47,695 nt of DNA from an uncultured Holophagales bacterium (GTDB lineage: Bacteria; Acidobacteriota; Thermoanaerobaculia; Multivoradales; UBA5704), in contig CAWJGT010000018.1 of NCBI GenBank assembly GCA_963842525.1, positions 1-47,695 of the forward strand, read 5' to 3'. How positions within the stretch are numbered: position 1 is the stretch's first letter; every line of letters begins with the position of its first letter. This document shows, piece by piece, positions 2,594 through 47,695 of the stretch. The notes under the pieces are model-generated. The model saw only the letters and a list, made by a program, of their open reading frames with translations. It had not been told where the DNA came from and ran no database searches. The translations under genes and the position numbers were made by a program.

Positions 2594-2899
2594 TTAGCTT
2601 CCGGGCACGCAGATGCCATTTGGGTCGAGCATGCAGCCATGGTCCACCGTAGAATGTGGCGCAACTGGCTCGCAAGGGCCATTGGGATCGATCCCACAGC
2701 CATGATCCGTGCAGGCGCCGTAGGGGTCGAGCCCGCAGCCATGCTCCGCCCAGGCGGCCGTGAGGGTGCCCCAGAGGCGTGCGAGGACGTCGAACAGCCG
2801 CGCCTCGGGGGCGGGCCCTGGCGCTGCCCAGGCGGGTGCGCACAACAGGGTGATCATCAGGAAGACGAGGAGGATACGGGCAAGTCGTCGATGGGCCAT
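2594..2899 (-). CDS. Secreted propeptide (101 aa) with three (D/E)HGCxxDPxGxC repeats
   Basis: AGGAG RBS before ATG 2899. Sec-type signal MAHRRLARILLVFLMITLLCAPAWA, a Trp-rich amphipathic segment, then EHGCGLDPYGAC, DHGCGIDPNGPC and DHGCMLDPNGIC. Confidence 0.85.
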   Translation of the reverse strand: MAHRRLARILLVFLMITLLCAPAWAAPGPAPEARLFDVLARLWGTLTAAWAEHGCGLDPYGACTDHGCGIDPNGPCEPVAPHSTVDHGCMLDPNGICVPGS

Positions 2900-5982: not shown

Positions 5983-5989
5983 GGAAGAC

Positions 5990-6018: not shown

Positions 6019-6051
6019 GCCCCTGAGTTGCAGACCAGCCCAATTTCCCTC

Positions 6052-6081: not shown

Positions 6082-6088
6082 GCTCTGC

Positions 6089-6657: not shown

Positions 6658-6658
6658 G

Positions 6659-6716: not shown

Positions 6717-6733
6717 TTCCAGGGGGTGAGGGG

Positions 6734-8252: not shown

Positions 8253-9133
8253 CCCACGAAACGATCGGCATGCGTCCCCCCTCTCCCGGCGGGGGGCGGT
8301 CGGAAGATGGGAGAGGGGGCCAGGGGGTGAGGACCCATTCCCCCCTCGCCCGGGCGGAGGGAGTGCGGATGGGAGAGGGGGGCCAGGGGGGTGAGGGTTT
8401 GCCTTCCCCCTCTCCCGTTCGGGGTGGAGGACCGGTGGCCGCACGGGAGAGGGGGCCAGGGGGAGAGGGCTCGTTCGGGGGCCGGCCCTGGATCTGCCGT
8501 CAGTGCGGAGAAGACCAGGTCGCTTTCGGCGCCATCCCCGAAGACCTCCTCTGCCACACCTGCCACGACGCCCAGAGAGCCGCGACCGCCTTCACCGAAG
8601 CCGACGCCGGCATTCCCAAGCTCCTGCGCGGCCTCACCCGCGAGAGCTGGTCCACCCACTTCGAGCGCCCCTGGCCCCAAGCCTTGGAGCACTGGACCGG
8701 CACCCCCCGCTGGGTTGCCATGTGGGGTCCCACCGGCACCGGCAAGACCGGCATCGCCACCATCCTCCTCGCCGAGCACCTGCGCACCGGCCGGCGCGGT
8801 CGCTGGATCTCCGGCCCCGAGCTGGCCAGGCGCATCCAGCGCGACCTCACCACCGCCGAAGAGGTCCTCGCCCCTCTCCTCGTCACCCCGCTGCTCGTCC
8901 TCGACGAGCCCCTCTCCGGCTCCAACGCCGACTGGTACATGGACCGGCTGATCCTGATCACCCGCACCCGCGACGAGAGCTGTCTGGCCACCGTCATCAC
9001 CAGTCAGCTCCTCCCCGAGCTGCTGCGCAATCCCAACGGCGCCATGCCGCCGTCCCTGCTCTCGCGCTGGCTCTCCGGCCTCCACGTCCGCACCGGCGGC
9101 ACCGACGTCCGCCTGAGAAAGGCAAGCCGATGA
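8249..9133 (+). CDS. DnaC/IstB-like ATPase (helicase loader) with a REP-derived N-terminal insert
   Basis: CRQC...CHTC zinc motif, Walker A GPTGTGKT, Walker B LLVLDE; ATGA-coupled on both sides. Confidence 0.85.
   Translation: MTHETIGMRPPSPGGGRSEDGRGGQGVRTHSPLARAEGVRMGEGGQGGEGLPSPSPVRGGGPVAARERGPGGEGSFGGRPWICRQCGEDQVAFGAIPEDLLCHTCHDAQRAATAFTEADAGIPKLLRGLTRESWSTHFERPWPQALEHWTGTPRWVAMWGPTGTGKTGIATILLAEHLRTGRRGRWISGPELARRIQRDLTTAEEVLAPLLVTPLLVLDEPLSGSNADWYMDRLILITRTRDESCLATVITSQLLPELLRNPNGAMPPSLLSRWLSGLHVRTGGTDVRLRKASR
8276..8469. repeat. Three tandem REP-type palindromes inside the DnaC-like CDS
   Basis: Units at about 8276-8332, 8340-8397 and 8406-8469: ccccctc(t/g)ccc-loop-gggagagggggccagggggtgagg. 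Confidence 0.85.
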
Positions 9134-10476
9134 AGCGCAAGCTCGTCCTGCCCCACAGCGAAGAAGCCGAAAAAGCCGTCCTCGGCGCCCTCCTCCTGGA
9201 ACCCATGCGCATCGCCCAGGTGCGCACCCGCCTGGAGCCCCGCGACTGGTTCCTCGAGCGCCATCGCGTCCTCTACCAGGCCCTGCTCGACGTCGCCGAT
9301 ACCGGCACCACGCCCGACCTCCTCACCGTCCAGGCCCACCTCCAGCAGGCCGGAGCCCTGGACACCATCGGGGGCCCGGCCTACCTCGCCACCCTCGACG
9401 TGGACCTGCCCGACCTCGACCGGCTCGACGAATACGCCGAAATCGTCCGCGAGAGGAGCGTCCGGCGAGACCTCATAGCCGGAGCCAAGAAGACCATCAT
9501 CGAGACCGCGACCACGACCCGGCCGGTCGCCGAGCTGCTCACCGGACTGCGCGACACCGCCGACAACCTCCTCGGCCGAGCCGCCCGGGTCCGTTGGACG
9601 GGAGCCGGCAACGTCCTCGACCAACTCCTGCTCGCCATCGAGAACGGCCCGCCCGAGGCCCTCCAGGGACTCACCAGCAGCTACCCGGGCTGGGACCGCC
9701 TCGGACCCGGCTTCCTGCGCGGCGGCCTCTACGTCCTCGCCGGAAGGCCGGGAATGGGCAAGACCTCCCTTGCTCTCGACCTCACCCGCCACGTCGCCGT
9801 GGACCTCCGGCGGCCGGTTGGAGTCTTCTCCCTGGAGATGCGTTCCGACGAGTTGGGCTTGAAGCTCGGCTCCGCCGAAGCCGACATCGCCGCCCGCTAC
9901 ATGAGAGCCGGCCACCTCTCCGGACGGCAATGGCAAGACCTCTACGCAGCCACCCGGCGCATGCTGGACGCCCCTCTGTACCTCGACGACACCCCAGGGC
10001 TCGTCCTGCGCGATCTGGAGGCGAGGGCCTGGTGGCTCAAAGCCCGCCATCCCGACCTCGCGCTCCTGGTCATCGATTACCTCCAGCTCGTCAATACCGG
10101 CATTCGTTTCGAGCAGCGCCGGCTGGAGATCGCCCACATCACCCGCCGCCTCAAAGAGCTGGCCGGTGAGCTGGGCGTGGTGGTCCTCGTCCTCTCCCAG
10201 CTCAACCGAGAGCTGACCCGCCGGAGCGATCCCAGACCCCAGCTCGCCGACCTGGCCGAATCCGGAGCCATCGAGCAGGCCGCCGACCAGGTCGCCTTCA
10301 TCCACCGTCCCGAAGCCTATGACCCCGACAACGAGACCCTGCGAGGCCTCGCCGAGGTCATCGTCGCGAAGCACCGGCACGGGCAGACCGGCACCGTCGA
10401 GCTGGCCTGGACCGGCTCCACCACCTCCTTCCGCAACCGAGTGACCCTGGCCCCGGCCGTCCCGGATCCCTTCTGA
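9130..10476 (+). CDS. dnaB: Replicative DNA helicase DnaB (element-encoded)
   Basis: PHSEEAEKAVLG, AGRPGMGKT, FSLEM, IDYLQL, LSQLNR, DLAESGAIEQAAD, AKHRHG. Confidence 0.97.
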   Translation: MKRKLVLPHSEEAEKAVLGALLLEPMRIAQVRTRLEPRDWFLERHRVLYQALLDVADTGTTPDLLTVQAHLQQAGALDTIGGPAYLATLDVDLPDLDRLDEYAEIVRERSVRRDLIAGAKKTIIETATTTRPVAELLTGLRDTADNLLGRAARVRWTGAGNVLDQLLLAIENGPPEALQGLTSSYPGWDRLGPGFLRGGLYVLAGRPGMGKTSLALDLTRHVAVDLRRPVGVFSLEMRSDELGLKLGSAEADIAARYMRAGHLSGRQWQDLYAATRRMLDAPLYLDDTPGLVLRDLEARAWWLKARHPDLALLVIDYLQLVNTGIRFEQRRLEIAHITRRLKELAGELGVVVLVLSQLNRELTRRSDPRPQLADLAESGAIEQAADQVAFIHRPEAYDPDNETLRGLAEVIVAKHRHGQTGTVELAWTGSTTSFRNRVTLAPAVPDPF

Positions 10477-10892
10477 TGCGCATCCGGCCCGACCAGGCGC
10501 GCGCCGCCCTCTCCCGCGTCAATCCTGCCCGCAGGCGGGCCGGCAGACCCGTGGGGCTGCGCGACTGCGCCATCCTGGCCCTCGCCGCGGCCGGCATGAG
10601 CGCCGAAGAGATCGCCGGAGTGCGTGCCTCCGACATCACCCTGGAGCGGGGAAACCTCCATATCGCGCTGCAGCGCGACGGCATCGTCTGGTACGTCATC
10701 CTGCCCTCCGACCTGGGCGGCCGGTTGTTCGCCTGGCTGACCGAGCGTCGCTTGTGGGCTGCCGACAAGCCGCTCTTCACCGGATTCCGGGGGCGAGGGC
10801 CGTTCTCGGTCAAGCACATCTACGACGTCCTCTACGGCTATGGCGCCCGGCGGACGAGGTCTCGCCGCTACCGGAGGCCGTCCGCATGCTAG
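10476..10892 (+). CDS. Truncated tyrosine-recombinase-like protein lacking catalytic residues
   Basis: GLRDCAILALAAAGMSAEEIAGVRASDI matches XerC/D box I but has Ser where the catalytic Arg lies. It includes ...KPLF... and ends with no HxxR or catalytic Tyr box. Confidence 0.65.
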   Translation: MRIRPDQARAALSRVNPARRRAGRPVGLRDCAILALAAAGMSAEEIAGVRASDITLERGNLHIALQRDGIVWYVILPSDLGGRLFAWLTERRLWAADKPLFTGFRGRGPFSVKHIYDVLYGYGARRTRSRRYRRPSAC

Positions 10893-11737
10893 TCGCCCTC
10901 TATGCCCGCACCGCGGGCACCGGCGAGCAGGTCCTCGCCGACCTGGCCGCCTACGCGGCCCGGAAAGGCTGGATCGTAGCCCTGGAGCACACAGACCAAG
11001 GCCCCTGGCACCAGGGGCCGCGAGACGGCCATAAGCGCCTCGTAGTGGCCGTGAGGGCCAAGGCCGTCCAGGCCGTCCTCGTGCCCACCCTGGGCCACCT
11101 GGCGCGCTCCCTGCGCCATCTGACGGGCCTGGGCCAGCTCCTCGCCGTCCAGGGCGTCGCCCTGATCGCCACCGAAGAAGGCCTCGACACCACCGACCCG
11201 GCCGGGGCCATCCGCTGGCGAGACTGGCTCGACCTCTCCGCCCGCCTCGACCGCCAGCTCCGTGCCGAAGCCGCCAAGCTGGCCCGCCTGCGCACCCCAG
11301 GTGAAACCTGGGGCCGCCCCCAGGCCGCCATCAATCCCGAGGAGCTCCTGGACTGGTGGGAAGGCCGCCGAGGCCGCCACCCGCTCACCCTGAGGGACCT
11401 CGCCCGCAGACTCGGAGTCTCCGAAGCCACCGCCCGCAAGCACCTCCAAGCCCTGCGCCAGGCTGGCCGAGTCGATGACGGAGCCCGCACCCGGGCCCTG
11501 GCCGCCCGAGCCGGCCACCGCCGAGGGGGCCGGACCGCGAACCCCCTCGACGACGTCGTCCTGATCGCCGCCTGGAACCTGCAGCTCCAGGCCGCTCACC
11601 GGCGAGGCACCGAGCCGAGCATCGCCACCCTCGCCCGTCACCTGCACGTCAGCCGGAGCCGCGTCCGCATTCGGCTCCGCGAGCTGGGCCTGCTGGAGCA
11701 GGAGCAAGCTGCCCCCGGAAGTTCCTCCGTGGCGTAA
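10886..11737 (+). CDS. Serine resolvase-like protein with degenerate active site and two C-terminal HTHs
   Basis: GGAGG RBS. VALYARTA (consensus YxRVS), LGHLARS (consensus LDRLxRS), EGLDTTDPAG, WGRP. HTHs LRDLARRLGVSEATARKHL and IATLARHLHVSRSRVRIRL. Confidence 0.8.
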   Translation: MLVALYARTAGTGEQVLADLAAYAARKGWIVALEHTDQGPWHQGPRDGHKRLVVAVRAKAVQAVLVPTLGHLARSLRHLTGLGQLLAVQGVALIATEEGLDTTDPAGAIRWRDWLDLSARLDRQLRAEAAKLARLRTPGETWGRPQAAINPEELLDWWEGRRGRHPLTLRDLARRLGVSEATARKHLQALRQAGRVDDGARTRALAARAGHRRGGRTANPLDDVVLIAAWNLQLQAAHRRGTEPSIATLARHLHVSRSRVRIRLRELGLLEQEQAAPGSSSVA

Positions 11738-11757
11738 ACAAAGCGTGGATTTGTGAT

Positions 11758-11934
11758 ATGATTTCTCTGACTGAGTGCCGTAAGATCCTGGGTGAGGCGG
11801 GGCGCGACCTCTCCGATGCCGAGTTGGAGCACCTCCGCCAGTTTCTTTACGGCCTCGCCGATATTAGCGTCAAGCACTTCCTGGCCAAGAGGAACAAGGC
11901 GGCCCAACCCCCCGACAAGGAGCCTACGGGATGA
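11758..11934 (+). CDS. 58-aa protein coupled to the integrase (candidate accessory or directionality factor)
   Basis: Hand translation: MISLTECRKILGEAGRDLSDAELEHLRQFLYGLADISVKHFLAKRNKAAQPPDKEPTG. Its TGA overlaps integrase ATG 11931. Confidence 0.7.
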   Translation: MISLTECRKILGEAGRDLSDAELEHLRQFLYGLADISVKHFLAKRNKAAQPPDKEPTG

Positions 11935-13452
11935 CCTCACTCCGGGCGATCATCTACTGTCGCGTCAGCAGCAAAGAGCAGACCCAGAACCTCTCCCTCC
12001 CCGTTCAAGAAGAGCAGTGCCGGGCCTTCTGCAGCCAGAGCGGCTGGGAAGTGGACAGGGTCTTCCTGGAGCGCGGCGAGTCCGCCAAGACCGCCGACCG
12101 CACGGAAGCTCCAGGAGGCCCTGACCTACCTGCGTGAGCAGAACAAGCGCTCCGCCAAGATCCACGTCTTTGTGGTCACCAACGTGGACCGGTTTGCCCG
12201 CGACTCCTTCGACCACGCCATCATCCGCCGGCACCTGGCGGCGCTCGGCATCACCCTCAGGGCGGTGAGCCAGCCCATTGACGAGACCCCGGCCGGCAAG
12301 TTTATGGAGGGCATCTTCGCGGCCCTCTCCCAATTCGACAACGAAGTCCGCGGCGGCCGGACCAAAGCCGGCATGCAGGAAGCGTTGCGCCGCGGCCAAT
12401 GGGTCTGGAAACCGCCTCTGGGCTACCTTCCGGACGGCAAGACCATGCAGCTCGACCCCGAGCGGGCGCCGCTCGTACGGCTCGGCTTCGAGCGCTTCGC
12501 CTCGGGCCTCTACACCCGCGTGCAGGTCCTGGAGGACCTCACCACGCGCGGCCTTCGCACCTTGAAGGGCCGCGAGCTGACGGCGCAGAAGTGGGGCGAG
12601 ATGCTCGCGAACCGGCTCTACATCGCCCGGATCTCGCAGTCTGCCTGGGCCATCGACACCGCCGGCAACTGGCCGCCACTGGTAGACGAGGACACCTTCT
12701 GGCGCTGCCAGAGCCTCCTCCGCACGAACGGCCTGATCGTGCCGAAGGAGCGCAACAATCCGGACTTCCCCCTCCGGGGCTTTGCGACGTGTGCCCACTG
12801 CGGGAAGCCGCTCACGGGCTCCTGGTCCCAGGGAACGACCCGGCGCTACGCCTACTACCACTGCCCGCCCAAGGCCCGCTGCCGCCGGACGAACATTCCG
12901 CGTCACGAGTTGGAGGGCCAATTCCTGACCCTCCTTGAGCGCCTCCGTCCCCGCCCCGAGTTCCTGGATCTCTTCCGTTCCATAGTCCTGGACGTCTGGA
13001 AGGGCCAGAAAGACGACGTCGCCGCCCAGAGGGCCGCTGCCGAGCGCAAACTTGCCGAGCTGAAGCAGCGCAAAGAGCTGCTCGTCGAGGCCTTCATCTA
13101 CCAGCGAGCGATCGACCAGGACACCTATCGGCAGCAGCTCGACAAGCTCAGCGAATCCATGGCCCTCGCAGAGATAGGCCGCAACGCCCTGAGGACCGAA
13201 GAGCTGGACATCGAGGCCGTCCTGGACTTCACCGAGAGGGTCGCCCTGAGCGCCTCCCGCCTCTGGCTGGAAGCCGACCTAGAGCAGCGCCAGAGGTTCC
13301 AGTCGCTCCTCTTCCCACAAGGTCTGCAGGTCGAAAATGGAGAGGTTCGAACTCCCGTAAGTCCCTCATTCTTCGAGGACTTACGCCACTTTACACCCCT
13401 CGACGAACGTTTGGTATCCCCAACGGGATTCGAACCCGTGTTGCCGCCTTGA
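11931..13452 (+). CDS. Large serine recombinase (integrase); one apparent +1 frameshift at ~12106
   Basis: IYCRVSSKEQ (catalytic Ser), VDRFAR, PPLGY, recombinase domain, zinc ribbon CAHCG...YYHC...C, coiled coil. The C-terminus VSPTGFEPVLPP is antisense tRNA sequence. Confidence 0.95.
13356..13385. repeat. Inverted repeat CGTAAGTCC-N12-GGACTTACG next to the tRNA 3' end
   Basis: Seen directly; candidate att-arm site or tRNA terminator. Confidence 0.55.
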
Positions 13453-31210: not shown

Positions 31211-37972
<6,762 letters not shown>

Positions 37973-37976
<4 letters not shown>

Positions 37977-40900
37977 GAGGGCCGCTCCTCCGGCATCTTC
38001 CGGCGCGCCAGCGCCGCCTCCTTCTCCGCGCCCGACATGCCGCGCAGGCGCAGCAGCACGCGAGCGACGGACTCGCTGCGCCCGGGCGTGGCCTCGCGCG
38101 CCAGCACCTGCCGCGCAAAGGCGGAGACCGTGGGCGATTCGAAGAGAGCGCGCAGGGGCAGCTCCGCCTGGAACGTTCCGCGCACCCGGGAGATGAGCTG
38201 GGTGGCCAGCAGCGAGTGCCCGCCCAGCTCGAAGAAGTTGTCGTCCGCGCCAACCCGCTGCCCCCCCTCCTGATCACCCAGCCCGAGCACCTCGGCCCAG
38301 AAGCCGGCCAGAAGCTCCTCGACCGCGGTCCGCGGCGGCACATAGTGCCGATCGGGACCGGCGAGGTCCAGCCGCTCCTCCAGCGCCTGGACGCCCAGGC
38401 GGGCGAGGGCCTGCCGGTCCACCTTGTCATGCGGGGTCAGGGGCAGCGCGTCGAGCAGCAGGCCCACCGCGGGGATCATCGGCTCGGGCAGCCGCTCGCG
38501 CAGGAAGGCGCGGAGGGCGGGCCAGGTGGGGACCCCCGCGCTCCGCCGGGGCACGACCAGGGCGACCAGGCTCGCCTCGCCGCGGCGGTCCCTGGGCACC
38601 GCCACCACGGCCTCGCCGACCTCGGGATGGGAGGCCAGGGCCGCTTCGACCTCCGCCGGCTCGACGCGGAAGCCGCGCACCTTGACCTGCTGGTCGATCC
38701 GCCCCAGGAACTCGACCGGCCCGCCGGGCCGCCGCCGCACCAGGTCGCCCGTGCGGTAGAGGCGCTCACCCGGCGCGTCGCTCTCCCCCGCGAACGGGCT
38801 CGGCACGAACCTCTCGGCGGTCAGGTCCGGCCGGCCCAGGTAGCCGCGCGCCAGCCCCGGGCCGCCGGCGAGCAGCTCGCCCGGAGCCCCCGGGGGGACC
38901 GGCTGCAGCCAGCGGTCGACGATGTAGATCCAGGTGCCGGCGATCGGCCGGCCGATCGGCACCGACCGGCCCGGCGGGATCGGCTCCCGCACCGTGTGGC
39001 AGCAGGTGTAGGTCGTGTTCTCCGTCGGGCCGTAGCCGTCGATCATCCGGCAGCCGGGCAGCTCCGCGAGCACCCGGTTCACCGCCTCGCGCGACAGGAC
39101 GTCGCCTCCCGCGAGGAGCTGGCGCACACCGCGCAGGGATTCGATCCGGCCCTCGGCCACGCGGTGGAACAGGCCGGCGGTCAGCCAGAGCATGGTCACG
39201 CCGTGCCGCGCCAGAATCGCGTCGAGCTCTTCGAGCGACGGCGCCTCCGGCGGGGGGAGGACCAGGCGGCCACCGTTGAGCAGCGCGCCCCAGATCTCGA
39301 CCGTGGCGACGTCGAAAGCCGGCGCCGAGAGCTGCAGGATCACCTCCTCCGGCCCGAAATCCGCGTAGTCGGCGCCCCGCACCAGCCGCACGATGCCGTC
39401 GTGGTCGATCCCCACCGTCTTGGGCCGCCCGGTCGAGCCGGAAGTGAACATCGCATAGGCCAGACGGCCGACGTCCGGACCCGGCAGGTCGGTCTCCGCC
39501 TGAGAGGGTGTTTGGAAAATTCTGCTGCCGACGTCGCCTTGGACCCTCACCCCCGACCCCTCTCCCATCCGCACTCCCTTCCCCCGGGAGAGGGGAGAAA
39601 ATGCACTGTCAGAAAGCGTCCCGGTGGAGGCTCCCCTCGCCCGGGCGGGTGTGAGTGCGGATGGGAGAGGGGTCGGGGGTGAGGGAACAGGGCTCGCGCA
39701 GATCCCCTCGTCCTCGTCGAGCAGGAGCGGCGCCGGCAGCTCCGGCAGGCGCTCCAGCCAGCGCCGCTCCGTGATCACCAGCGGGATGCCGGCCTCGCGC
39801 ACCAGCTCGTCGACGCGCTCGCGCGGCCAGTTGGGATCGAGCGGCACATAGGCTCCGCCCGCCTTGAGGACTGCGAGGAAGGACTCGACCAGGGCGGTCG
39901 AGCGCTCCAGGGCCACCCCCACGAGGGCCTCGGGGCGCAGGCCCTCCGGCTTCCCGCCCAGAAGGCGCCTCAGGTGGCGGGCCAGGCAGTTGGCCCGCGC
40001 ATTGAGCTCCGCGAAGGTCACCTCCAGCCCGTCGCTCGCCACCAGCGCGGTCCGTAGCGGCGTCCGCCGCGCCTGCTCCTCGAAGAGGCGATGGACCGGC
40101 GTGCCGAGCGGCGCCTCCGACGGCTCCGCACCCGACTCGTCGAGGATCTGGCGGCGCTCCGCAGCGCTCAGCAGGGGCAGCTCCGACAGGCGCCGCTCCG
40201 GATCGGCGGCGATCTCCCCGAGCAGGGCGGCAAAACTGTCCCCCATCCGCGCGATCGTGCTCGCCGTGAACAGGTCGCGGCTGTACTCCAGATCGACCAG
40301 CAGGCCCCAGGGTTCCTCGATCGCGGTGGCGCTGAGCTCGAACTTGGCCGTCCCCGAGTAGACCGGCAGCGACTCGAAGAGGAGACCGGCCGCGTGCAAC
40401 CGCGACCCAGGCATGTTCTGCAGCACGAGCATCGCCTGGAACAGAGGCGAACGCGCGGTGCGGTCGGGCCGCAGCTCCTCGAGGAGCCTCTCGAACGGGA
40501 GGTCCTGGTGGGCGTAGGCGCCGAGCGCCACACCCCGCGCCTGCCGCAGCAGCTCGCGGAAACCGGGATCGCCCGACAGGTCGAGGCGCAGCACCAGCGT
40601 GTTGATGAAGAAACCGATCAGGCCGGAGGTCTCGGCGTGGGTCCGGTTGGCCACGACCGTGCCGACCGGCACGTCCTCCTCGCCGCACCAGCGGGAGAGG
40701 AGCAGGCCGAAGGCGGCCAGGAGGACGACGAACAGCGTCGTTCTCTCCTCGCGGGCGAGGGCCTGCAACGGCTCCATGACATCGCCGCCGACGCGGAGCC
40801 GGCTGCGGCCGCCGGCCGGCGTAGGGACGGCCGGCGGCGGGAAGTCGGCCGGCAGCCGCAGCGCCTCGGGCGCGCCCGCAAGCTGCTCCTTCCAATAGCC

Positions 40901-41620
40901 GAGCTGCTTTTCGACCACCTCGCCCTGGAGCCACTTGCGCTGCCACAGTGCGAAATCAGCGTACTGGATGGGCAGTACCCGCAGCTCGGCCGGCCTCCCT
41001 TCGGCGGCTGCGGCGTAGAGCTCCGTCATCTCGCTCACCAGAACGCCCATAGACCAGCCGTCGCTCACGATGTGGTGCATGCCGATCAGCAGGGCATGGT
41101 CCTCGCGGCCGAGCCGCACCAGCGTCGAGCGCACCAGAGGCCCCACGGCGAGGTCGTACGGCCGCTTGGCGTCGGCCAGCAGAAGGCGCTGGAGCTCGGC
41201 GTCCCGGACGCCTGAAGGAAGAGCCGCCAGGTCGACCAGCGGCAGCGCGAAGGCGAGGCGGGGCGCGATCACCTGGACCGGTTTCCCGTCCTCGTCCCGG
41301 AACGTGGTGCGGAGCGACTCGTGGCGGTCGGAGACGGCCTGGAGCGCCGCGGCCAGGGCCGCCGGCCGCAGCGGACCGGTAATGCGGAAGCTGACCGGCA
41401 GGTTGTAGGTCGACTGGCCCGGATCGAGCTGGTCCAGGAACCAGAGCCGCTGCTGGGCAAACGACAGCGGAATGGAAGCCGGCCGGATACGGGGCGTGAT
41501 CCGATAGCCCCGATCGCCGCCCGCAGGCTCGCTCCCGCGCTTCTCCCGCAGCCGCTGGAAGAGCAGAGCGCGCTCCTCCCGCGACAGCTTGGAGATCCGT
41601 TCGTTCAGCACCTCGGGCAT
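37973..41620 (-). CDS. NRPS, first gene, C-A-T (aliphatic, Val-like residue predicted)
   Basis: GAGGAGG RBS and start MPEVLNE at 41620. HHIVSDGWS, FTSGSTGRPK, LGGHSL. Code about DVVWLGGTYK (tentative). Confidence 0.95.
39544..39685. repeat. Inverted REP pair in frame in the first A domain
   Basis: Units 39544-39596 and 39632-39685. Confidence 0.85.
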
Positions 41621-41745
41621 CGTGTCCTCCTCAAAAAACCCGCCACAAGAGTAAGTGCCACATCCGGCCTGGAGGGTGTCTCGACAGCCGCCCGGCAACC
41701 GGGGGGACTGACGGGAAGGCCTCGTTCCCAATTCCCCGGGAAAGG

Positions 41746-41779
41746 CCCCCTGGGAGGCGCGTTTGCACCCCCCAGGGGG
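41746..41779. terminator. GC-rich hairpin upstream of the NRPS/PKS operon
   Basis: ccccctgggaggcgc-gttt-gcacccccca ggggg; no U-tract. Confidence 0.35.
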
Positions 41780-41859
41780 GGTAGGTTAGACTACAGGCTG
41801 TCTCACGTCCGTGAAGCGGACGCCGGGGTCGTTGCAGGCGACTCCGGTGTCCTCCTCCC

Positions 41860-42231
41860 TCAGCCCAGCCCGCCGGCAAAGGCGATCAGGCCATCCACCA
41901 GCCGCGGATCGCGCCGCGAAAACACCCGGAGCACGACCGCGAGCTGCTTGCCGGAAAGCTGCACATGGACCGGCAGCCGCAGCGCGGACGCGAGCTCCGA
42001 GACATAGCCCGAGTAGGCCGAAGCCACTCGCGCCTCCGGGAACTCGCGGAGCCGCCGTATCACCTGACCGCCCTGCGTCAGGCTCCAGCCGGCCTCCAGC
42101 AGCTCCTGCACCCGCTCGGCCTTCAGCCGGCCATGGGTCTCCCCAATCGCGGCGAGCGCCTCCTGCACCCTCTCGGCCTTCAAACCGAGAGGATTGGGGG
42201 ACGGCTTCTGACACACCTGTTCTGCTTTCAT
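41860..42231 (-). CDS. Pterin-4a-carbinolamine dehydratase/DCoH-fold-like protein, probably non-catalytic
   Basis: AAGGAGG RBS. GWSLTQGGQVIRRLREFP...AYSGYVSELA resembles PCD, but the HHP motif is absent. LKAERVQE is duplicated. Confidence 0.55.
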   Translation of the reverse strand: MKAEQVCQKPSPNPLGLKAERVQEALAAIGETHGRLKAERVQELLEAGWSLTQGGQVIRRLREFPEARVASAYSGYVSELASALRLPVHVQLSGKQLAVVLRVFSRRDPRLVDGLIAFAGGLG

Positions 42232-42534
42232 CTCGAACCTCCTTGGCGCAAGCACCCGGCACCTTCATTGGCACCGGCAAGGCAGAGACTAGGCGAGCCC
42301 TTCCTCTTTGTCAACACATTTGATGCTCGAATCGCATCGAAGAATCTGCGGATGATCCAAGAAAGTCCTTGCGTCTACTCTGGACCAGAGCCTGAACGTC
42401 GGCTGGCCCGAGGGAGCGCAGGCGTGGGACAATCCCCCGGACACGAGGTTGAAGCCCTGCGACACTGAGTCTCTGTTGCCTACGGACCGCCGGGCCACGG
42501 AGGCTCGGCTGCGCTTCGTGGGAGGGAGGATCTG

Positions 42535-42825
42535 ATGTCTCAGCGAATCGTCGGTCGTCTCGTCGGCGCTGGAATCCTGGCCGCAGCCCTCACTTTCGCC
42601 GGGCCCGTTCGGGCGGAAGGCCGGGGCTTCCAGGACCCCTCGGATGTCCTGCAGTGGCTCACCCAAGCCTGGCGGAGCGGCGTGTCCCAGCTCTGGTCGT
42701 GGAGCGGCAGCCTGACACCGTGGAACCAGGGGCCGTGCACCAACCCGGACGGCTCTGCGTGCCCGGACAGCTCGACGGCAGGAGATCCGGGCGACCAGGG
42801 ATTCGGGGCCGATCCAAACGGCTAG
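42535..42825 (+). CDS. Secreted propeptide (96 aa) with NQGPCTNPDGSAC and C-terminal DQGFGADPNG motifs
   Basis: GGAGGGAGG RBS; signal peptide ...LAAALTFAGPVRA; Trp-rich segment; same architecture as 2594-2899. Confidence 0.8.
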   Translation: MSQRIVGRLVGAGILAAALTFAGPVRAEGRGFQDPSDVLQWLTQAWRSGVSQLWSWSGSLTPWNQGPCTNPDGSACPDSSTAGDPGDQGFGADPNG

Positions 42826-42835
42826 GCCTTACCCG

Positions 42836-42863
42836 GGCCTGGGGCGGCACGCCGCCCCGGGCC
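42836..42863. terminator. Strong hairpin just after the peptide gene
   Basis: ggcctggggcggc-ac-gccgccccgggcc. Confidence 0.5.
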
Positions 42864-42877
42864 TCGCTTGTGCGAGA

Positions 42878-44210
42878 ATGGCGGCGCCTAAAAGGAGACA
42901 CGCGAGTGTGCATCACTCTTGAGGGGCTCAGCAGTCCTCTTGCGTCCGAGAGGGGGCGGGTGCTCCTCACCCACTTCCTCCAGGGCTGCGAGACATGCTG
43001 CGACGCCGTCTGGCGGGGTTGTCTCCGGCCGGTTTCGTTCGAGCCGCCCACGCCCGAGCAGGACGCCGCGTACGACTCCGCCCTAGATCGCGCTTCCAGC
43101 CGCCCTGCGGGCCGATGCCCTCCTGCCCGAAGACCGGGAACAGTTCTCCAGAGCCCTCCCCCTCCTCGCCTCGGGCCGCGGCATCCTCGTCCTCACGCTG
43201 GAGGCCGATATCGACGTGGAGGGCCTCGGCGTCTACGAGGCGCTCCTCGCCCGGAGCTGGTCCGTCCGCTTCGACAACCCGCAGGAGATGTACCACCTGG
43301 CCAGGAGCGCCGTCGAAATCGCGAAGAGCCTCGACCCGCTGGTCCTTGGGGTCCGGGAGGTTGCGGACTACCAGGCGCGGGCCTGGGGAGAAGCTCGGCA
43401 ACGCCTACCGCGCCGCGGACGAGCCCAGTCGGCGGAAGGAGCCTTCGGCCAGGCGTTCGCGCTCGCCAGGCAAGGCACCGGGAACCGGCTGCTGAAGGCT
43501 CGCCTTCTCGATCTCCAGGCCTCGTTCTATGGAACCATTCGAGAGGTCCCGCTGGCCCACGACACGCTGAGGACCGTCGCGGCCCTCTACCAGCAAGAGG
43601 GCGAAGAGCATCTCGCCGTCCGCACTCTGGTCACCACGGCTCTCTATACATTCTACTCGGGCAAGGCCGAGGAAGCCCTGAGCCTGAACCAGCAGGCACT
43701 TGACCGCATCGATCCGGAACGTCAGTCCGCACTGATGACCACAGCCCTCCAGAATCAGCTCATGTTCCTGACCGAGCTGGGCCGTTTCCGGGAGGCCAGG
43801 AAGCTCCTCTTCAAGAGCCGGCCCCGCTTCCTCCGTGCGGGCCGGGTCAACCAGGTGAAGATCCAGGGCATCGAGGGCCAGATCTACTATGGCCTGGGGA
43901 AGTTCGTTGCCGCTGAGGTAATCCTTCGTGAGGTCAAGAACGATCTCGACGCCTTGGGGCTGGGCTTCGCCTCCGCCCTCGCCGCCCTTGAGTCGGCCTG
44001 GCCCTCCTGCGCCAGCACCGGATCGACGAGGCGGAGCAGGAGGTCCTCGGGGCCGCGGCGGTCTTCGTGTCCCTGAACATCCGGCGCGAGATCCTGAACT
44101 GTGTGGCCGCCCTCGAAGAAGCCTTCCGGCTGCGGCTGGTGACCGTGGAGATCATGGAAAACGCGGTCTTGTACATCCGCAAGAAGGCGGCCGAGCACGG
44201 GTTCAGGTAG
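42878..44210 (+). pseudogene. Zn-finger (H...CxxC) plus TPR-repeat protein with several frameshifts (pseudogene or sequencing error)
   Basis: Fragments in different frames: LLTHFLQGCETC...YDSALDRA; ALLARSWSVRFDNPQEM; QARAWGE|LGNAYRAAD; ARLLDLQAS; these are related to the TPR proteins at 1080-4524. Confidence 0.7.
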
Positions 44211-44216
44211 GCCGGC

Positions 44217-44673
44217 TCAACCGCCGCTCTTGGCCTTCGGCTTGTCCCGCTTGTCCAGGATCTCCGCCATCACCTCGCGCACCGCGCTTTTCACCGCCTC
44301 GGTATCGGCGGCGGCCGTCGCCGCCGCCGCCCTCTCCTCGCGGGGCTGCGGCCCCGGGACCGCGCCGGCCTGGACCCTCGGCGGATCAGGCCCTCCAGCA
44401 TGGCGCGGATCCTCTGGGCCGCGGGGCTCCATCGCTCCGGAACAGGCCGCTCGGGATAGAGGAGCTGAAGAGCTGGGAGACTCGAGACCGATCGCCCGCG
44501 CGATCCCCAGCACCACCTCCAGCTTGGCCTCCACCTGCCCGCTGTACAACCGGGTCAGGAAGCTCGGAGGAGACCAGACGCCGTTCAACCTCGCGGTTGG
44601 AGATCCCCATCATCCGACTGAGCGTCCTTAGTACATCGAGAGTGCGCCGTACCTCGTCCATGTCTTTGTTCAT
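44217..44673 (-). CDS. XRE-like HTH regulator (frameshifted)
   Basis: EVRRTLDVLRTLSRMMGISNREVERRL|SFLTRLYSGQVEAKLEVVLGIARAIGL across two frames. Confidence 0.7.
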
Positions 44674-44858
44674 AGGGGGTAGTCTACCTCAGTCTCTCAA
44701 AGACAGCAGGTTTGTCCCCAAAGATGCATCTTCACGGCGTCCAATCCTCTGATGTAGAAACAGCAAGGAAGCCGCGCTGTTGCGGGCGAGGGAAACTTTA
44801 AACCGTGCCGGGACGACCGGGGAAAGACCTCAGGCGGTCCGGCGGGAGGAGGAATTCC

Positions 44859-45355
44859 ATGGATCGAGCATCGATGCCGAGCAGCGCCTTTTCGCCGGAG
44901 TACCTGGCCTTCCTTCGCGAGAGGAACGAGCCGGACGCGCCCTGGGCCGGCGAGGACACGGGGCCGTTCGTGATCCGGGAGATCGGAGACGGCTTCGGGC
45001 TCTTCCGCCCCTGGCAGAGCCCCGAGGCGGGCGACGGGCCGGAGGGGGTCTTCAAGAGCCACGAAGACGCCCGGCTGGCGCTGACAGCCCGGGCGGCCCT
45101 GCGGCGCGCGCGCTACTACCGGCTGCAGGAAGTGGACGCTTCGCGGCCGGGCGGCGGCTATGCGGTGGAGCGGGATGGGGCCGTGATCGGGCACGTGCGC
45201 TCCTACGATCCCAAATGGATCTTCGCCTGCCACGTCCTGGCCTGCGCCGCCCAACCGCCGAGCACTTCGCCACCCTCCTCGATGTCGCCGGCTCCGCAAC
45301 CCAGGAAGAGGTCGGGGACATCCTGGGGAGGGAGGTGAAGGCCGCGGGGGCGTGA
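44859..45355 (+). CDS. Hypothetical protein (frameshift at ~45257)
   Basis: GGAGGAGG RBS; globular-looking ORF 44805..45338 continuing as EHFATLLDVAG... to 45355. Confidence 0.55.
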
Positions 45356-45490
45356 GAAAAGACCACGGCCGCCTTTATCTCTACTATGGGTGGCCGTGGT
45401 TGTTTCGGGAAGGTGCCCTCAGGTCGTGCCCGTTTCGCCTCAAGCCGCTTATAATGCATTGAGGCCGATGCACCAAAGGGGAGGCCAACG

Positions 45491-45743
45491 ATGACGCGCG
45501 TCCAAGTGGAATTCGACTCCACGTTTTTGCGACCTTGCGGAGATCTCCGGAGGAGGTTGTCCAGGAGATGCGCTTGGCGGCAGCGGTCATCTGGCATGCC
45601 CAGGGTCGTGTCTCCCAGGGTCGTGCTGCGGGGTTCGCGGGCGTGAAGTTGGGCCGGGTCTCATCCATGCCCTGTCGGCGAGCGGCGTCTCGGCTTGCCA
45701 GGAGACGCTGGAGGATCTCGACGAGGTCCTGGCGCGTGGATAA
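45491..45743 (+). pseudogene. UPF0175-family antitoxin-like gene, frameshifted
   Basis: LRRSPEEVVQEMRLAAAVIWHAQGRVSQGRAAGFAGV. Confidence 0.7.
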
Positions 45744-46212
45744 GGCCCTGGTCGTCAACGCTTTGCCGTTCATTCTCCTCGCCCATCGAGCGTCTCATCT
45801 CCGGCTTCCCTCGCAAAGCTCCTTGTCGTACCAGAGGCCGTGATCCGGGAGATCCAAGCAGGGTCCATCGCGACGGGACGGCCCACCAGAGAAGGACTCC
45901 CCTCGATACTTCAAATTCAGATTCGACCGGTTCCCGATCCGATCGGCTTCTGGAACTTGGGGGCTGGCAATCCCAAGTTCTTGGCCCACGGACTTAACGG
46001 CCAGGATCGGAGGTCGTCTTGAATGATCTGGCGGCACGTCGCTGCGCATGCAGTCTGGGCCTTTCCATCGTAGGGACTTTGGGCGTTGTCGTTTCCGCCG
46101 CGATCGCGGCGTCATCAGCGCAGCAAGACCTGTCATCAAGACGCTTCGCGAGGCCGGGCTGCGCCTGAAACCGGCATTGATGGACGAAGCGTTGACGAAA
46201 GTGGGCGAGTAA
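45736..46212 (+). pseudogene. DUF3368-like PIN-domain toxin, frameshifted
   Basis: Fragments LVVNALPFILLA, VPEAVIREI, WNLGAG, AARRCA, IVGTLGV, LREAGLRL...EALTKVGE; overlaps the antitoxin stop. Confidence 0.7.
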
Positions 46213-46314
46213 GCTTCTCGCCCGCCGCGGCCGAGAGCACCATTCTACACACAGCGTTCAGGCGGGCCCCGGCCTCGAGGGTCCTGCCGAGACACCTGCG
46301 GGCGGGAGGTCGTC

Positions 46315-47192
46315 ATGCCCAGTTTCCACTTCTGTTGCTTCGGCTCGCTTGGACGGCGGATTACGAATCTCTCCGCCTCGCCCAATGGCCAGTACCTGGC
46401 GTGCAAGGGGTGCGCTACGAATCCGTCTGCGGGTCGCTGTCGCTTGATACGCCTCCCGCGCGGCTCCGGCGCGGCGTTTTGGTGCCCGTGGCTCTGGGTG
46501 CGCCGCCGTGGGTCGGCACACGCGCGGCGCGCGAGTGCGAAGCGTTGCAAAAGATCATCCTGCCGCTTGCCATGAAGGCTCCTGGAGTCCGCGGTTCACG
46601 CCGGCCGCAGCCCGCTGGCTTGATGAACAAACGCGCCATCCAGATCGCATCGGGCGAGATGCTGCTGAACATCCATGATGACCCGCATGCGGATCGTTCT
46701 GGCAAAACACGACCGCGCTTCCACGTGATGTCGCTTGATAATATCTACGCCGAGTCCAGCACAGGCGAGAATGGCCATTTTGAGCTGCGGGGCATGAATA
46801 ATCTCGACGCGCCGGGCGTCCTGCGCTGCCCGAGCACCTGCGGCGGCAGCACCGGCAGCTTTCTGCCCGGCGGCAAAGCCCGGCCCCTGCACGGCCCAGG
46901 GCGGCGTGATCGTAGTCGACTGTGCGGTAGAGCATCGCGCCGCGGGGGCAAAGTCCGTACGCTTCCAGAATCGGGCGGTGGCACCTATTGGGAAATCAGC
47001 GACTGCCTGTCGTTTCAAAGTCCTGAAGGTCAGTCCGTAGCGATTGGAAGCGCAGAAGAGGTTCCCTCTATTCGCCTGACAGACCCGAATCCGCCTCAAA
47101 GGCTTCAGCATCTCGCGCCACCGATTGGGCAGTCCGACTCGAGCCGCAGGGTTATGCCGCTCAAAATTCAGCCTCTTTTGGCCATCGCTTAA
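46315..47192 (+). CDS. Hypothetical coding region, frame and start uncertain
   Basis: Long ORF 46086..47192 and a GGAGG-ATG at 46315 in a different frame; no recognisable motif. Confidence 0.25.
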
Positions 47193-47695
47193 ATCTGTGG
47201 GGCAAGACGCCCATGAGTCTTTTTATGTTCTGCGATAACCTTGCAAGGGTCTCTGCGATTCCCTTGTTTGCTGCAGCTACATCTGTCAGGAATCCCGTGT
47301 GCGCCGTGTATATTCTTTCCTTAAGGGAGGAAATTTGCTCCCCCAACGCATTCCCCTCGTCCCCGGCAAAATCTTTCCGAAACTGACTGCTTAAACCGTT
47401 AATTTGCTCAACTAGGCCCAGGTTGCTTCGAATTATTGTTAGCTGAGCATACAATAGCGAATACAGTTCTCCGAGTAGCTCGCTCGAATCGTACAAGGTG
47501 TCTCGCAGAGCAGGTGTCCTTTCTAGGAGAACGACTTCATGCGCCAGCTGAAGAGCCTCCTCCAAGAAGGGTATTAGCTTATCCAACTCCGTCAACATAG
47601 CCTCACACGCATTTTTAGTCTCAAGAGGGTTAGGCAAAAGTCCATAGATCGCTCTGTACCTTATTGTCACTATGGCGTGGAGCGCAAACCATCTG
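47161..47695 (-). CDS. Partial hypothetical helical protein, AT-richer, open to the right edge
   Basis: ORF 47161..47670 has no in-frame stop up to the window end; base composition is visibly lower in GC. Confidence 0.55.
   Translation of the reverse strand, partial: RWFALHAIVTIRYRAIYGLLPNPLETKNACEAMLTELDKLIPFLEEALQLAHEVVLLERTPALRDTLYDSSELLGELYSLLYAQLTIIRSNLGLVEQINGLSSQFRKDFAGDEGNALGEQISSLKERIYTAHTGFLTDVAAANKGIAETLARLSQNIKRLMGVLPHRFKRWPKEAEF

What the first reader, a model, noticed from the sequence alone, without database searches (positions are those of the whole stretch)
42535..44673. Second, independent peptide-TPR locus with the same GxxxD/NPxG motif
Seen: signal peptide, Trp-rich helix, then NQGPCTNPDGSAC and terminal DQGFGADPNG, matching the DHGCxxDPNG cassettes 40 kb away. 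It is followed by a related TPR gene with an anti-sigma-like Zn finger instead of an HTH, and a convergent XRE gene. Recurrence with a different output domain supports a modular family with variable specificity residues. Its position at the head of the BGC raises possible density control of the metabolite (inference).
Basis: partly seen in the sequence, partly recalled or inferred. Interest (0 to 1): 0.78.

Follow-up and report, generated by a model that had tools for sequence, protein, structure and literature searches.

The report
Secreted DPNG peptide–TPR receptor cassette
A small exported peptide gene sits beside a cytoplasmic repeat-protein gene, one of about sixty such pairs in this soil acidobacterium; they look like peptide signal-and-receptor sets, a design so far described only in Gram-positive bacteria.

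Summary
Window 42535-42825 encodes a 96-aa pre-peptide: signal peptide, Trp-rich helix, terminal ...GDQGFGADPNG-stop. A TPR gene with an anti-sigma-like H/C-x2-C N-terminus follows (42906-44210), then a convergent XRE gene (44217-44673).

Both larger genes are frame-broken in the window. The window's ends duplicate other contigs, and the C19 copy removes all but one break, so most breaks are assembly indels.

33 of 37 motif peptides lie within 1 kb of a TPR paralog (random mean 1). 66 of 94 TPR loci carry such a peptide (random loci 0-2).

HTH-type and Zn-type receptors share one TPR domain (hhalign E 1e-65). The family fills a clade of Thermoanaerobaculia, with 25 to over 50 matches per genome. 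The peptide profile finds 3,469 unannotated clusters.

Best reading (0.45): RRNPP/Rap-like peptide signalling, with a Zn anti-sigma-like output domain in place of an HTH. Binding, processing and import are not shown.

The proposed BGC control gets no support: only 1 of 94 receptor loci lies near any of 33 NRPS/PKS regions.

The parts
42535..42825 (+). Pre-peptide gene, 96 aa plus stop. GGAGG lies 7 nt upstream.
   Evidence: Identical in the C19 copy. Relatives at 84% and 71% identity. No Pfam or NCBIfam family.
42535..42615 (+). Sec-type signal peptide, aa 1-27, ending VRA before E28.
   Evidence: Read from the translation. The same n/h/c layout appears in 54 paralogous peptides. No signal-peptide predictor was available.
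42640..42723 (+). Trp-rich amphipathic segment, aa 36-63.
   Evidence: W56 is invariant among 8 close relatives.
42724..42762 (+). Internal degenerate module NQGPCTNPDGSAC, aa 64-76.
   Evidence: Not conserved in P0002, which has NPDD.
42790..42822 (+). Terminal module GDQGFGADPNG, aa 86-96, directly followed by the stop codon.
   Evidence: G89, D93, P94, N95 and G96 are invariant. 77 of the 145 short proteins among the listed best relatives end exactly at DPxG.
42906..44210 (+). Receptor gene: Zn anti-sigma-like N-terminus, long helix, about 330-aa TPR superhelix. In the window it is read in four frame pieces.
   Evidence: The C19 copy has one remaining break near window 43380. TPR_12 E 6.9e-9.
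42972..42998 (+). H23-x4-C28-x2-C31 zinc-motif codons.
   Evidence: H, C and C are invariant in 18 of 18 aligned N-termini. They align to the H...C..C of ChrR, DdvA and RslA with one extra residue.
44217..44673 (-). Convergent small XRE-family HTH gene. 153 aa in the C19 copy; frame-broken in the window.
   Evidence: (HTH_3 E 1.3e-5).
42256..42534 (.). Divergent intergenic region between the peptide gene and the first ORF of the NRPS-PKS operon.
   Evidence: No sigma-70-type promoter match.
2594..2896 (-). Cys-type peptide of the first cassette, with three xHGCxxDP[YN]G modules. It lies between two HTH-TPR genes (956-2543 and about 3020-4524, +).

Best explanation
The locus is one copy of a lineage-wide, heavily duplicated two- or three-gene signalling cassette that works like an RRNPP/Rap-Phr system.

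Proposed steps (all inferred unless marked):
1. The 96-aa pre-peptide is exported by Sec and its signal peptide is removed.
2. One or more short peptides ending in ...x-x-[A/I/L/M]-D-P-N-G are released. The last copy already has the free C-terminus.
3. The peptide re-enters the cell and binds the concave groove of the TPR superhelix of the adjacent cytoplasmic receptor.
4. Binding changes what the N-terminal module does. In HTH-type paralogs that is DNA binding. In this Zn-type copy it is the hold of an anti-sigma-like zinc domain on a partner: a sigma factor, or here perhaps the convergent XRE protein.
5. Specificity would lie in the two or three variable residues before the invariant DPNG.

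Shown here: gene order, linkage, the domain swap, the spread across the clade, and the fold class.
Not shown: export, processing, import, binding, and target genes.
For: Linkage.
- 33 of 37 motif peptides lie within 1 kb of a receptor paralog; random mean 0.96, maximum 6 in 2000 trials.
- 66 of 94 receptor loci have a signal-peptide ORF with DPxG within 1 kb, giving 54 distinct peptides. Random loci gave 0-2 of 94 in 10 replicates.
- The pair recurs in other genera: 6 of 9 loci inspected.

Receptor.
- No signal peptide or membrane helix was seen in the N-terminal sequences or the all-helical model.
- TPR by Pfam in 10 of 11 rows.
- AF2 model pLDDT 89, a superhelix.

Modular output.
- XRE HTH and Zn domain sit on one homologous TPR domain. 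This parallels HTH-bearing RRNPP members versus Rap.
- One paralog (C34:43373-45853) is a sigma gene overlapping a Zn-TPR gene, followed by a peptide gene.
- The XRE partner recurs: 15 of 24 homologs lie within 1 kb of a receptor locus, by my count of the rows, and the ones I checked are convergent.

Peptide.
- 17 of 54 peptides in this genome, and 77 of the 145 short proteins among the listed best relatives, end exactly at DPxG.
- 2-4 module copies in 140 of 145. [quoted passage not shown]
- Cassettes co-diverge.
- There is fast turnover within the genus, as I recall for Rap-Phr repertoires.
- Three Opp-type binding-protein genes are present.
Against: - No evidence of processing, import or binding exists.
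- No RRNPP-specific Pfam or NCBIfam model matched; only generic TPR models did.
- The conserved module has six fixed positions out of ten. That is more than known pheromones keep, and fits a structural or ion-binding loop as well.
- Four long proteins carry dozens of such modules in tandem.
- The Trp-rich helix is conserved and has no role in this model.
- The organism is presumably diderm (taxon; envelope type is general knowledge), so a Sec-exported peptide reaches only the periplasm.
- 28 of 94 receptor loci have no detected peptide.
- The focal receptor keeps one frameshift in both contig copies and lacks the first His of the zinc site, so this copy may be defective.
- No sigma gene is adjacent here.
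Confidence: 0.45

Rival explanations
1. Regulator plus product. The TPR protein (with the XRE protein) controls transcription of the neighbouring small gene. The exported peptide is an extracellular or periplasmic effector in its own right, for example an ion-binding, surface-active or antagonistic peptide, and not the receptor's ligand.
For: - The module has six conserved positions, and tandem arrays of dozens of modules occur in long secreted proteins. That looks like a structural or ion-binding repeat.
- A conserved amphipathic Trp helix is present.
- Cys-type modules C-x-x-D-P-x-G-x-C could form disulfide loops after export (inference).
- Tight linkage and co-divergence are equally expected for a regulator and its target.
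Against: - Sixty-odd dedicated regulators, each with a large ligand-binding-type TPR domain, for 90-aa products would still need an input signal.
- No immunity, transport or modification genes recur next to the pairs among the 61 neighbour ORFs scanned.
- The stop codon placed exactly after DPxG in about half of the relatives suggests a recognised free C-terminus.
Confidence: 0.25
2. This particular copy is decaying. The focal receptor gene is a pseudogene and the cassette is not functional, whatever the family does.
For: - One frameshift, in a TGGGGA run near window 43380, is shared by both contig copies.
- The focal N-terminus lacks the family's otherwise conserved first His.
- No ortholog above 49% identity in the five congeners searched.
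- The nearest paralog locus (C19:105.7-106.8 kb) is fragmentary and sits beside an IS110 transposase.
Against: - Both copies come from one assembly that clearly makes single-base indel errors: 59 gap columns in 10.5 kb of overlap. A homopolymer miscount is the simpler reading.
- Both reading-frame pieces are full-length and align along the whole family without further stops.
- The peptide is intact and conserved in two metagenome relatives.
Confidence: 0.2
3. Secretion-coupled sensing. The cytoplasmic TPR protein binds the not-yet-exported pre-peptide, as TPR chaperones of secretion substrates do. It is freed to act on its partner when export proceeds, so it reports export flux rather than cell density.
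For: - The receptor is cytoplasmic and the peptide is made in the same compartment, so no re-import step is needed. That suits a diderm cell.
- The conserved Trp helix could be the bound element.
- TPR chaperone-coactivator pairs are known in type III secretion (recalled, not tested).
Against: - Sec substrates of 90 aa are not known to need dedicated chaperones.
- The sequence diversity and copy number have no obvious purpose in this model.
- The exact C-terminal DPxG is left unexplained.
Confidence: 0.07

Closest known systems
RRNPP/RRNPPA peptide quorum-sensing systems of Bacillota and their phages (Rap-Phr, NprR-NprX, PlcR-PapR, Rgg-SHP, PrgX, AimR-AimP)
   Same: - An adjacent small gene for an exported propeptide plus a cytoplasmic TPR-type receptor.
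- HTH-bearing and HTH-less receptor forms occur on one TPR scaffold.
- Propeptides with several candidate mature peptides.
- Many divergent paralogs per genome.
- Rap and NprR structures are the best bacterial matches to the models.
   Different: - No sequence-family match.
- The host is a presumably diderm acidobacterium. Papers read describe RRNPP systems as a feature of Firmicutes (PMC10075063 abstract and one passage; PMC9765709 abstract).
- The peptide has a conserved ten-residue module and a Trp helix.
- The output module is a zinc anti-sigma-like domain.
- There are 60-90 copies per genome.
- Processing, import and binding are untested.
Zinc-binding anti-sigma domains (ChrR, RslA, DdvA; RsrA recalled)
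   Same: - N-terminal His ... H-x-C-x2-C pattern in a short helical domain.
- These are the top four PDB hits of the N-terminal profile.
- One paralog is translationally overlapped by a sigma-70-family gene.
   Different: - H-x4-C instead of H-x3-C.
- E-values are marginal (0.0024-0.6), and Pfam zf-HC2 is not hit.
- No membrane span; fused to a 330-aa TPR domain.
- No sigma gene next to the focal copy or next to the 20 loci scanned.
- Only 3 of 42 sigma genes lie within 1 kb of a receptor locus, by my reading of the coordinates.
LGN/Pins TPR domain (eukaryotic polarity proteins)
   Different: Eukaryotic, 15-18% identity, no regulatory N-terminal module. The resemblance is one of fold class.
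Multi-copy secreted pheromone and hormone precursors (yeast alpha-factor type; recalled, not tested)
   Same: Signal peptide followed by tandem copies of a short conserved unit. The long relatives P0004, P0005 and P0014 have dozens of units, often followed by K or R.
   Different: There is no evidence of cleavage. The short bacterial forms have only 1-4 units.

Membership tests
RRNPP/RRNPPA | Cytoplasmic receptor with a C-terminal TPR-type peptide-binding domain | tested here: met
   TPR_12/TPR_10 on the focal C piece. TPR_12 in 10 of 11 family rows. AF2 superhelix, pLDDT 89. No signal peptide or membrane helix seen in the sequences or the model.
RRNPP/RRNPPA | Adjacent small ORF encoding an exported propeptide | tested here: met
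   42535-42825, 81 nt upstream on the same strand. Genome-wide linkage. The signal peptide was judged by eye and a crude rule, not by a predictor.
RRNPP/RRNPPA | N-terminal HTH (or, in Rap, a helical effector-binding domain) | tested here: not met
   The focal receptor has no HTH; its N-terminus is Zn anti-sigma-like. HTH_3 is present in type-1 paralogs. The Rap analogy is functional only.
RRNPP/RRNPPA | Sequence homology to a known RRNPP family model | tested here: not met
   Only generic TPR models matched in Pfam and NCBIfam at E up to 0.05-0.1. PDB profile hit to RapF only at E 0.087.
RRNPP/RRNPPA | Structural similarity of the TPR domain to solved RRNPP receptors | tested here: inconclusive
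RRNPP/RRNPPA | Mature peptide is processed, imported by an oligopeptide permease, and binds the receptor | not testable with these tools
   Three SBP_bac_5 genes are present, which is only permissive. Processing and binding need experiments.
Zinc anti-sigma factors (ZAS / zf-HC2) | H/C ... H-x3-C-x2-C zinc motif in an N-terminal anti-sigma domain | tested here: inconclusive
   H, C, C invariant in 18 of 18, the first His in 17 of 18, but the spacing is H-x4-C. Top PDB hits are ChrR, DdvA, RslA and Fin at E 0.0024-0.6. Pfam zf-HC2 not hit. The focal copy has Cys2 in place of the first His.
Zinc anti-sigma factors (ZAS / zf-HC2) | Co-transcribed cognate ECF sigma factor | tested here: not met
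   No sigma domain among the focal neighbours or the 61 neighbour ORFs of 20 paralog loci. Met only in a paralog at C34:43373-45434.

The most novel reading that the evidence does not exclude
A whole class-level clade of soil Acidobacteriota (Thermoanaerobaculia) uses genetically encoded, exported oligopeptides ending in DPNG as intercellular signals. These are read by cytoplasmic TPR receptors. It would be the first RRNPP-style peptide communication outside Bacillota. There are dozens of private channels per genome. One receptor class is in effect a soluble, peptide-gated anti-sigma factor, with a free C-terminal ...D-P-N-G-COOH recognised by a conserved Asn/Arg set in the TPR groove.
Probability: 0.3. 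Interest if true: 0.9.

Novelty: new variant of a known kind. Interest (0 to 1): 0.72.

Why it matters
Peptide signalling through cytoplasmic TPR receptors is treated as a hallmark of Gram-positive Firmicutes and their phages. The papers I read present it so: PMC10075063 (abstract and one passage) and PMC9765709 (abstract and two passages).

Here the same gene logic appears, without detectable sequence kinship, in uncultured soil Acidobacteriota.
- About 60 peptide-receptor pairs and 94 receptor loci in one genome.
- 25 to over 50 receptor matches in each of the 18 other family members searched.
- 3,469 peptide clusters in public data, none named among those I looked up (5 proteins).

If the peptides are ligands, this opens an unexplored communication system in one of the most abundant soil phyla. 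It also gives a new input type for anti-sigma-like regulators, and a large natural library of orthogonal peptide-receptor pairs.

If they are not ligands, the family is still a very large unannotated secreted-peptide family with a sharply defined ten-residue module.

My searches found no paper that joins RRNPP with Acidobacteria, Acidobacteriota with quorum sensing and propeptide, or describes such cassettes in Thermoanaerobaculia.

Tried and rejected
- Complex prediction of the nearest intact receptor (L002, 454 aa, with alignment A4) with residues 60-103 of its cognate peptide gave no verdict: score 0.01, mark 0.32. It is no evidence either way.
- No RNA run holds the stretch. Four soil DNA runs were listed, with shares up to 0.16.
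- Laying two of those runs gave only scattered 150-nt contigs. None covers the G run near 43380, so the remaining frameshift could not be checked.
- The sigma-70 promoter and terminator scan of 41700-44900 found 0 promoter-like sites, and 1 terminator-like site inside the receptor gene. That is below the shuffled expectation.
With a single protein it returned only 2 loci. These served to name the lineage: 'Thermoanaerobaculia bacterium' MAG.
- The ESM Atlas gave only unnamed Acidobacteriota clusters.
- Pfam found nothing on the four long tandem-module proteins.
- RiPP-precursor reading: the 61 neighbour ORFs of 20 loci showed no recurrent radical-SAM, cyclodehydratase, lanthipeptide or transporter gene. 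One LanC-like gene and one SnoaL gene appeared once each. I gave this reading low weight.
- RTX-type calcium repeat reading: the nine-residue period in P0004 does not fit the GGxGxDxUx pattern. This was judged by eye against a recalled pattern.
- Synteny test of the BGC link: there is no close ortholog in the five congeners searched.
- The 131-aa ORF 41863-42255 looked like a pterin-4a-carbinolamine dehydratase to me, but it has no Pfam hit at E 0.001.
Full report
WHAT IS AT THE COORDINATES

Window 42535-42825 (+) encodes a 96-aa product. A GGAGG lies 7 nt before its ATG. The product has:
- a basic n-region, a hydrophobic core and ...VRA before E28, which is a typical Sec signal peptide by eye;
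- a Trp-rich segment (aa 36-63);
- a degenerate module NQGPCTNPDGSAC (aa 64-76);
- a terminal GDQGFGADPNG followed directly by the stop.

Eighty-one bases downstream, after AAAAGGAG, a GTG at 42906 opens a gene that ends at 44210. Its product begins with an H-x4-C-x2-C motif and continues as a TPR protein. A small XRE-type HTH gene runs towards it from 44673 to 44217 on the minus strand.

SEQUENCE QUALITY

The window is a complete 47.7-kb contig (C18) of a 9.95-Mb, 34-contig, 68% G+C assembly.
- Bases 1-7001 duplicate the start of contig C9 at 99.66% identity.
- Bases 37201-47695 duplicate the end of contig C19 at 98.4% identity, with 166 differing columns, 59 of them gaps.
- Between 42400 and 44800 there are 15 differences. 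Nine of them are single bases missing from the window.
- These account for three of the four frame changes needed to read the receptor gene in the window, and for all breaks in the XRE gene.
- On C19 the XRE gene is intact at 153 aa. The receptor gene has one remaining break, in a TGGGGA run near window 43380.

I therefore worked with the C19 copy (locus L001) as two in-frame pieces and never joined them. The last break is either a homopolymer miscount or a real lesion. I could not settle which, because the soil runs that share words with the locus do not cover it.

The second HTH-TPR gene of the window's first cassette (about 3020-4524) is likewise broken in the window but reads as one open frame on C9.

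IS THE PEPTIDE-TPR PAIRING MORE THAN CHANCE?

- The loose motif G...[DN]P[NDY]G occurs in 108 of 146,848 stop-to-stop frames of 30 aa or more.
- I defined peptides as frames with at least two [DNG]P[NDYSH]G in the last 75 residues, the last within 12 residues of the stop. After dropping the duplicated C18 ends this gave 37 non-redundant frames.
- tblastn with six receptor pieces gave 94 non-redundant receptor loci.
- 33 of the 37 peptides lie within 1 kb of a receptor locus. Random placement gave a mean of 0.96 and a maximum of 6 in 2000 trials.
- The four exceptions: one is a false positive without a signal peptide; one sits 750 bp from a contig end; two are orphans.
- From the receptor side, 66 of 94 loci (59 of the 74 that are 600 nt or longer) have a signal-peptide-bearing ORF of at most 170 aa with DPxG near its end within 1 kb. 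That makes 54 distinct peptides.
- The same rule on 94 random loci gave 0-2 hits in ten replicates.

Linkage is therefore not refuted. It is overwhelming.

TWO CASSETTE TYPES ON ONE RECEPTOR SCAFFOLD

Receptors with an XRE HTH N-terminus mostly pair with Cys-bearing peptides (G-C-x-x-D-P-x-G-x-C ... C-x-P-G-S). These peptide genes lie between or convergent to the receptor genes, as at the window's start.

Receptors with the H...C-x2-C N-terminus have the peptide gene upstream on the same strand in 24 cases. That peptide often ends exactly at DPxG.

The two receptor types are clearly homologous over the whole TPR part. hhalign of a 17-row Zn-type alignment against a 12-row HTH-type alignment gives probability 100, E 1.4e-65, 355 columns and 28% identity. 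Only the N-terminal 100-130 residues differ.

THE N-TERMINAL MODULE

- In 18 aligned Zn-type N-termini the H, C and C are invariant. An upstream His, 25 residues before, is present in 17. The exception is the focal protein, which starts M-C and has Cys2 there.
- Pfam zf-HC2 does not match.
- A profile of these N-termini finds zinc anti-sigma domains as its best four PDB hits: ChrR (E 0.0024), DdvA (0.044), M. tuberculosis RslA (0.048) and Fin (0.61). The His and the H...C..C are aligned, with one extra residue in our family.
- From memory, ChrR binds zinc through two His and two Cys with the same first spacing, and RsrA uses a Cys in the first position. That is a recalled lead, not a test.
- Sigma genes are not neighbours of the focal copy or of the 20 paralog loci scanned.
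- By my reading of the coordinates, 3 of the genome's 42 sigma-70 region-2 hits lie within 1 kb of a receptor locus.
- One paralog is telling. At C34:43373-45853 a sigma gene overlaps the start of a Zn-TPR gene by 35 nt, and a family peptide gene ending ...IDDNG follows. At least some Zn-type receptors are thus wired like anti-sigma factors.

THE XRE GENE

The convergent XRE protein is a recurrent third part, not an accident.
- Its homologs at four other loci align along the HTH and beyond, at 19-39% identity.
- Of 24 tblastn hits in the genome, 15 lie within 1 kb of a receptor locus by my count of the rows, and 10 lie within 300 bp. The ones I checked are convergent on the receptor's 3' end.

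FOLD

- AF2 on the nearest intact paralog (L002, 38-46% identical to the focal pieces) gives pLDDT 89. The model has a small helical N-domain, a 40-residue helix, and a superhelix of about nine helical hairpins.
- The HTH-type model (pLDDT 85) gives LGN 22.7 and RapJ-PhrC 21.7, which is a tie.

SPREAD

- The receptor profile matches 29 of 31 related genomes at E 1e-10 or better.
- In a phylum-wide sample it matches 9 of 201 genomes, G000 included, all in the same class. None of the genomes from other classes matched at E 1e-20.
- Related contigs are titled 'Thermoanaerobaculia bacterium' MAG.
- In 6 of 9 loci from other genera a signal-peptide, Trp-helix...IDP[ND]G peptide lies next to the receptor.
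- A profile of 19 peptides finds 3,469 clusters at E 0.001 or better, and 423 at 1e-10 or better, among 1.84 billion representatives.
- Of the 150 best listed, 145 are short. 140 of these have 2-4 modules, and 77 end exactly at DPxG.
- The module consensus is [DEK]-x-G-x-x-[IML]-D-P-[ND]-G.
- No Pfam or NCBIfam model matches the peptides.
- Names found for relatives are 'hypothetical protein' or none.

EVOLUTION

- Receptor and peptide similarities correlate across 31 pairs: Mantel r 0.37, with 0 of 2000 permutations as high. Within the HTH type r is 0.60 (0 of 2000). Within the Zn type r is 0.19 (68 of 2000). This shows co-duplication as units. It does not by itself show co-evolution of contacts.
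- The focal receptor has no relative above 49% identity in the five congeneric genomes searched.
- Two metagenome proteins are 84% and 71% identical to the peptide. They keep G-D-x-G-[FY]-G-A-D-P-N-G-stop, while the internal NPDG is lost in one.

THE BGC IDEA

- The window carries a 28-kb NRPS-PKS operon on the minus strand (13526-41731), with C-A-T modules, KS-AT modules and a terminal reductase.
- A 131-aa ORF (41863-42255) precedes the operon. The peptide gene lies divergently 279 bp beyond it.
- However, the genome has 33 NRPS/PKS regions covering 1.17 Mb, and the focal locus is the only one of 94 receptor loci within 3 kb of any of them.
- Random placement gives 13.1 +/- 3.3. Counting only the 3-kb flanks, my estimate is about 2.
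- Neighbours of the other cassettes are diverse: a LytTR two-component pair, a gas-vesicle gene, peptidases, aminotransferases, an acyl-CoA ligase.

The adjacency is thus compatible with chance. Control of this BGC remains an untested possibility for this copy only.

MECHANISM

The anatomy fits an RRNPP/Rap-like circuit best:
1. an exported propeptide;
2. a cytoplasmic TPR receptor encoded next to it;
3. alternative output modules on one sensor scaffold;
4. several candidate mature peptides per precursor, as reported for AimR, PlcR, Rap and NprR propeptides (PMC9765709, passage read);
5. many fast-diverging paralogs.

The stop codon placed exactly after DPxG in half of the family suggests that a free C-terminus next to an Asp is recognised. 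The receptors' invariant N177, R180, S218 and R224 are candidates for this, by analogy with TPR carboxylate clamps. That analogy is recalled and is inference.

Three Opp-type binding proteins are encoded. Two of them lie 2-4 kb from receptor loci. By my estimate that happens by chance about 2 times in 100, which is weak.

Points against this reading:
- Six fixed positions in ten is unusual for a pheromone.
- The Trp helix has no role in the model.
- Long proteins exist with dozens of tandem modules.
- A Sec substrate in a diderm cell reaches only the periplasm.
- Nothing shows processing, import or binding.

I put the signal-receptor reading at 0.45, and a regulator-plus-secreted-product reading at 0.25. 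Separately, I give 0.2 that this particular receptor copy is defective.

COMPARISON AND NOVELTY

It works like RRNPP on the evidence of gene logic and fold class. It is not a demonstrable member: there is no family-model match, no HTH in this copy, and a different phylum.

Its N-terminus resembles zinc anti-sigma domains but fails the strict motif and the sigma-neighbour test at this locus.

My literature searches found:
- no paper holding both RRNPP and Acidobacteria;
- none holding Acidobacteriota, quorum sensing and propeptide together;
- nothing relevant under Thermoanaerobaculia with tetratricopeptide;
- nothing relevant among RRNPP papers that mention other phyla.

The paper on BGC-rich soil Acidobacteria has no occurrence of tetratricopeptide, quorum or sigma (PMC9723581, term search of the text). 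Supplements were not read.

I rate the finding a new variant of a known kind, with a real chance of being the first such system outside Bacillota.

Noticed in passing
window 1-7001 and 37201-47695: Both ends of the window duplicate other contigs: C9:7002-1 at 99.66% and C19:534190-523703 at 98.4%. There are many single-base indels, rising to 60 differences per 500 bp near 46500-47000. Genes in these stretches look frame-broken in the window but are mostly intact on the other contig.
   Followed up: yes
window 39495-39702: A roughly 200-bp element is 88-93% identical to at least nine other places in the genome. It lies in frame inside the NRPS gene 37973-41731, between adenylation-domain segments. 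A similar Gly/Glu-rich translation occurs at 8249-8450.
   Followed up: no
proteins P0004, P0005, P0014, P0019: Secreted proteins of 640-780 aa from metagenomes. Each has a roughly 200-aa N-domain, then dozens of tandem G-x-x-[ILMV]-DP[ND]G-[KR] units, often with period 9. They also carry C-terminal repeats of about 11 residues with a D/S-E-W core, most ending in KR. No Pfam hit. They look like polyprotein precursors or a new repeat fold.
   Followed up: partly
G000 C34:43373-47870: A sigma-70-family gene overlaps a Zn-TPR receptor gene by 35 nt. A family peptide gene ending IDDNG follows, then a second sigma gene and a second (frame-broken) TPR gene. This is the only place where the anti-sigma-like receptor sits in a sigma operon.
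   Followed up: partly
G000 C9:423700-438100: A tandem cluster of six receptor paralogs with variant peptides (single C-I-D-P-[MQ]-G module, or V-I-D-P-N-G-C) and two XRE partners.
   Followed up: no
G000 C9:403765-404823 and C1:375359-376348: Two of the genome's three Opp-type (SBP_bac_5) binding-protein genes lie 2-4 kb from receptor loci.
   Followed up: no
window 5608-13449: A mobile-element-like block lies between the first cassettes and the BGC. It holds an XRE/CII-like repressor, an IstB-like ATPase, a DnaB helicase, and two serine-recombinase genes (10754-11734, 12172-13449). Parts are 80-94% identical to C3, C1 and C27.
   Followed up: no
L003:4886-5314, L021:886-1395; window 41863-42255: Small pterin-4a-carbinolamine-dehydratase-like ORFs (Pfam Pterin_4a, E 3e-6 and 1e-5) lie near two paralog cassettes. 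The 131-aa ORF in the same position at the focal locus has no Pfam hit.
   Followed up: partly
whole genome G000: 33 NRPS/PKS regions total 1.17 Mb, about 12% of the genome.
   Followed up: partly
L017:3-2006, L006:3978-5999, L011:2-1765: Peptidase genes (prolyl oligopeptidase/DPP-IV family S9, M1, M10-like) directly flank three of the 20 cassettes scanned. A post-proline peptidase would cut within D-P|N-G. Enrichment was not tested.
   Followed up: no
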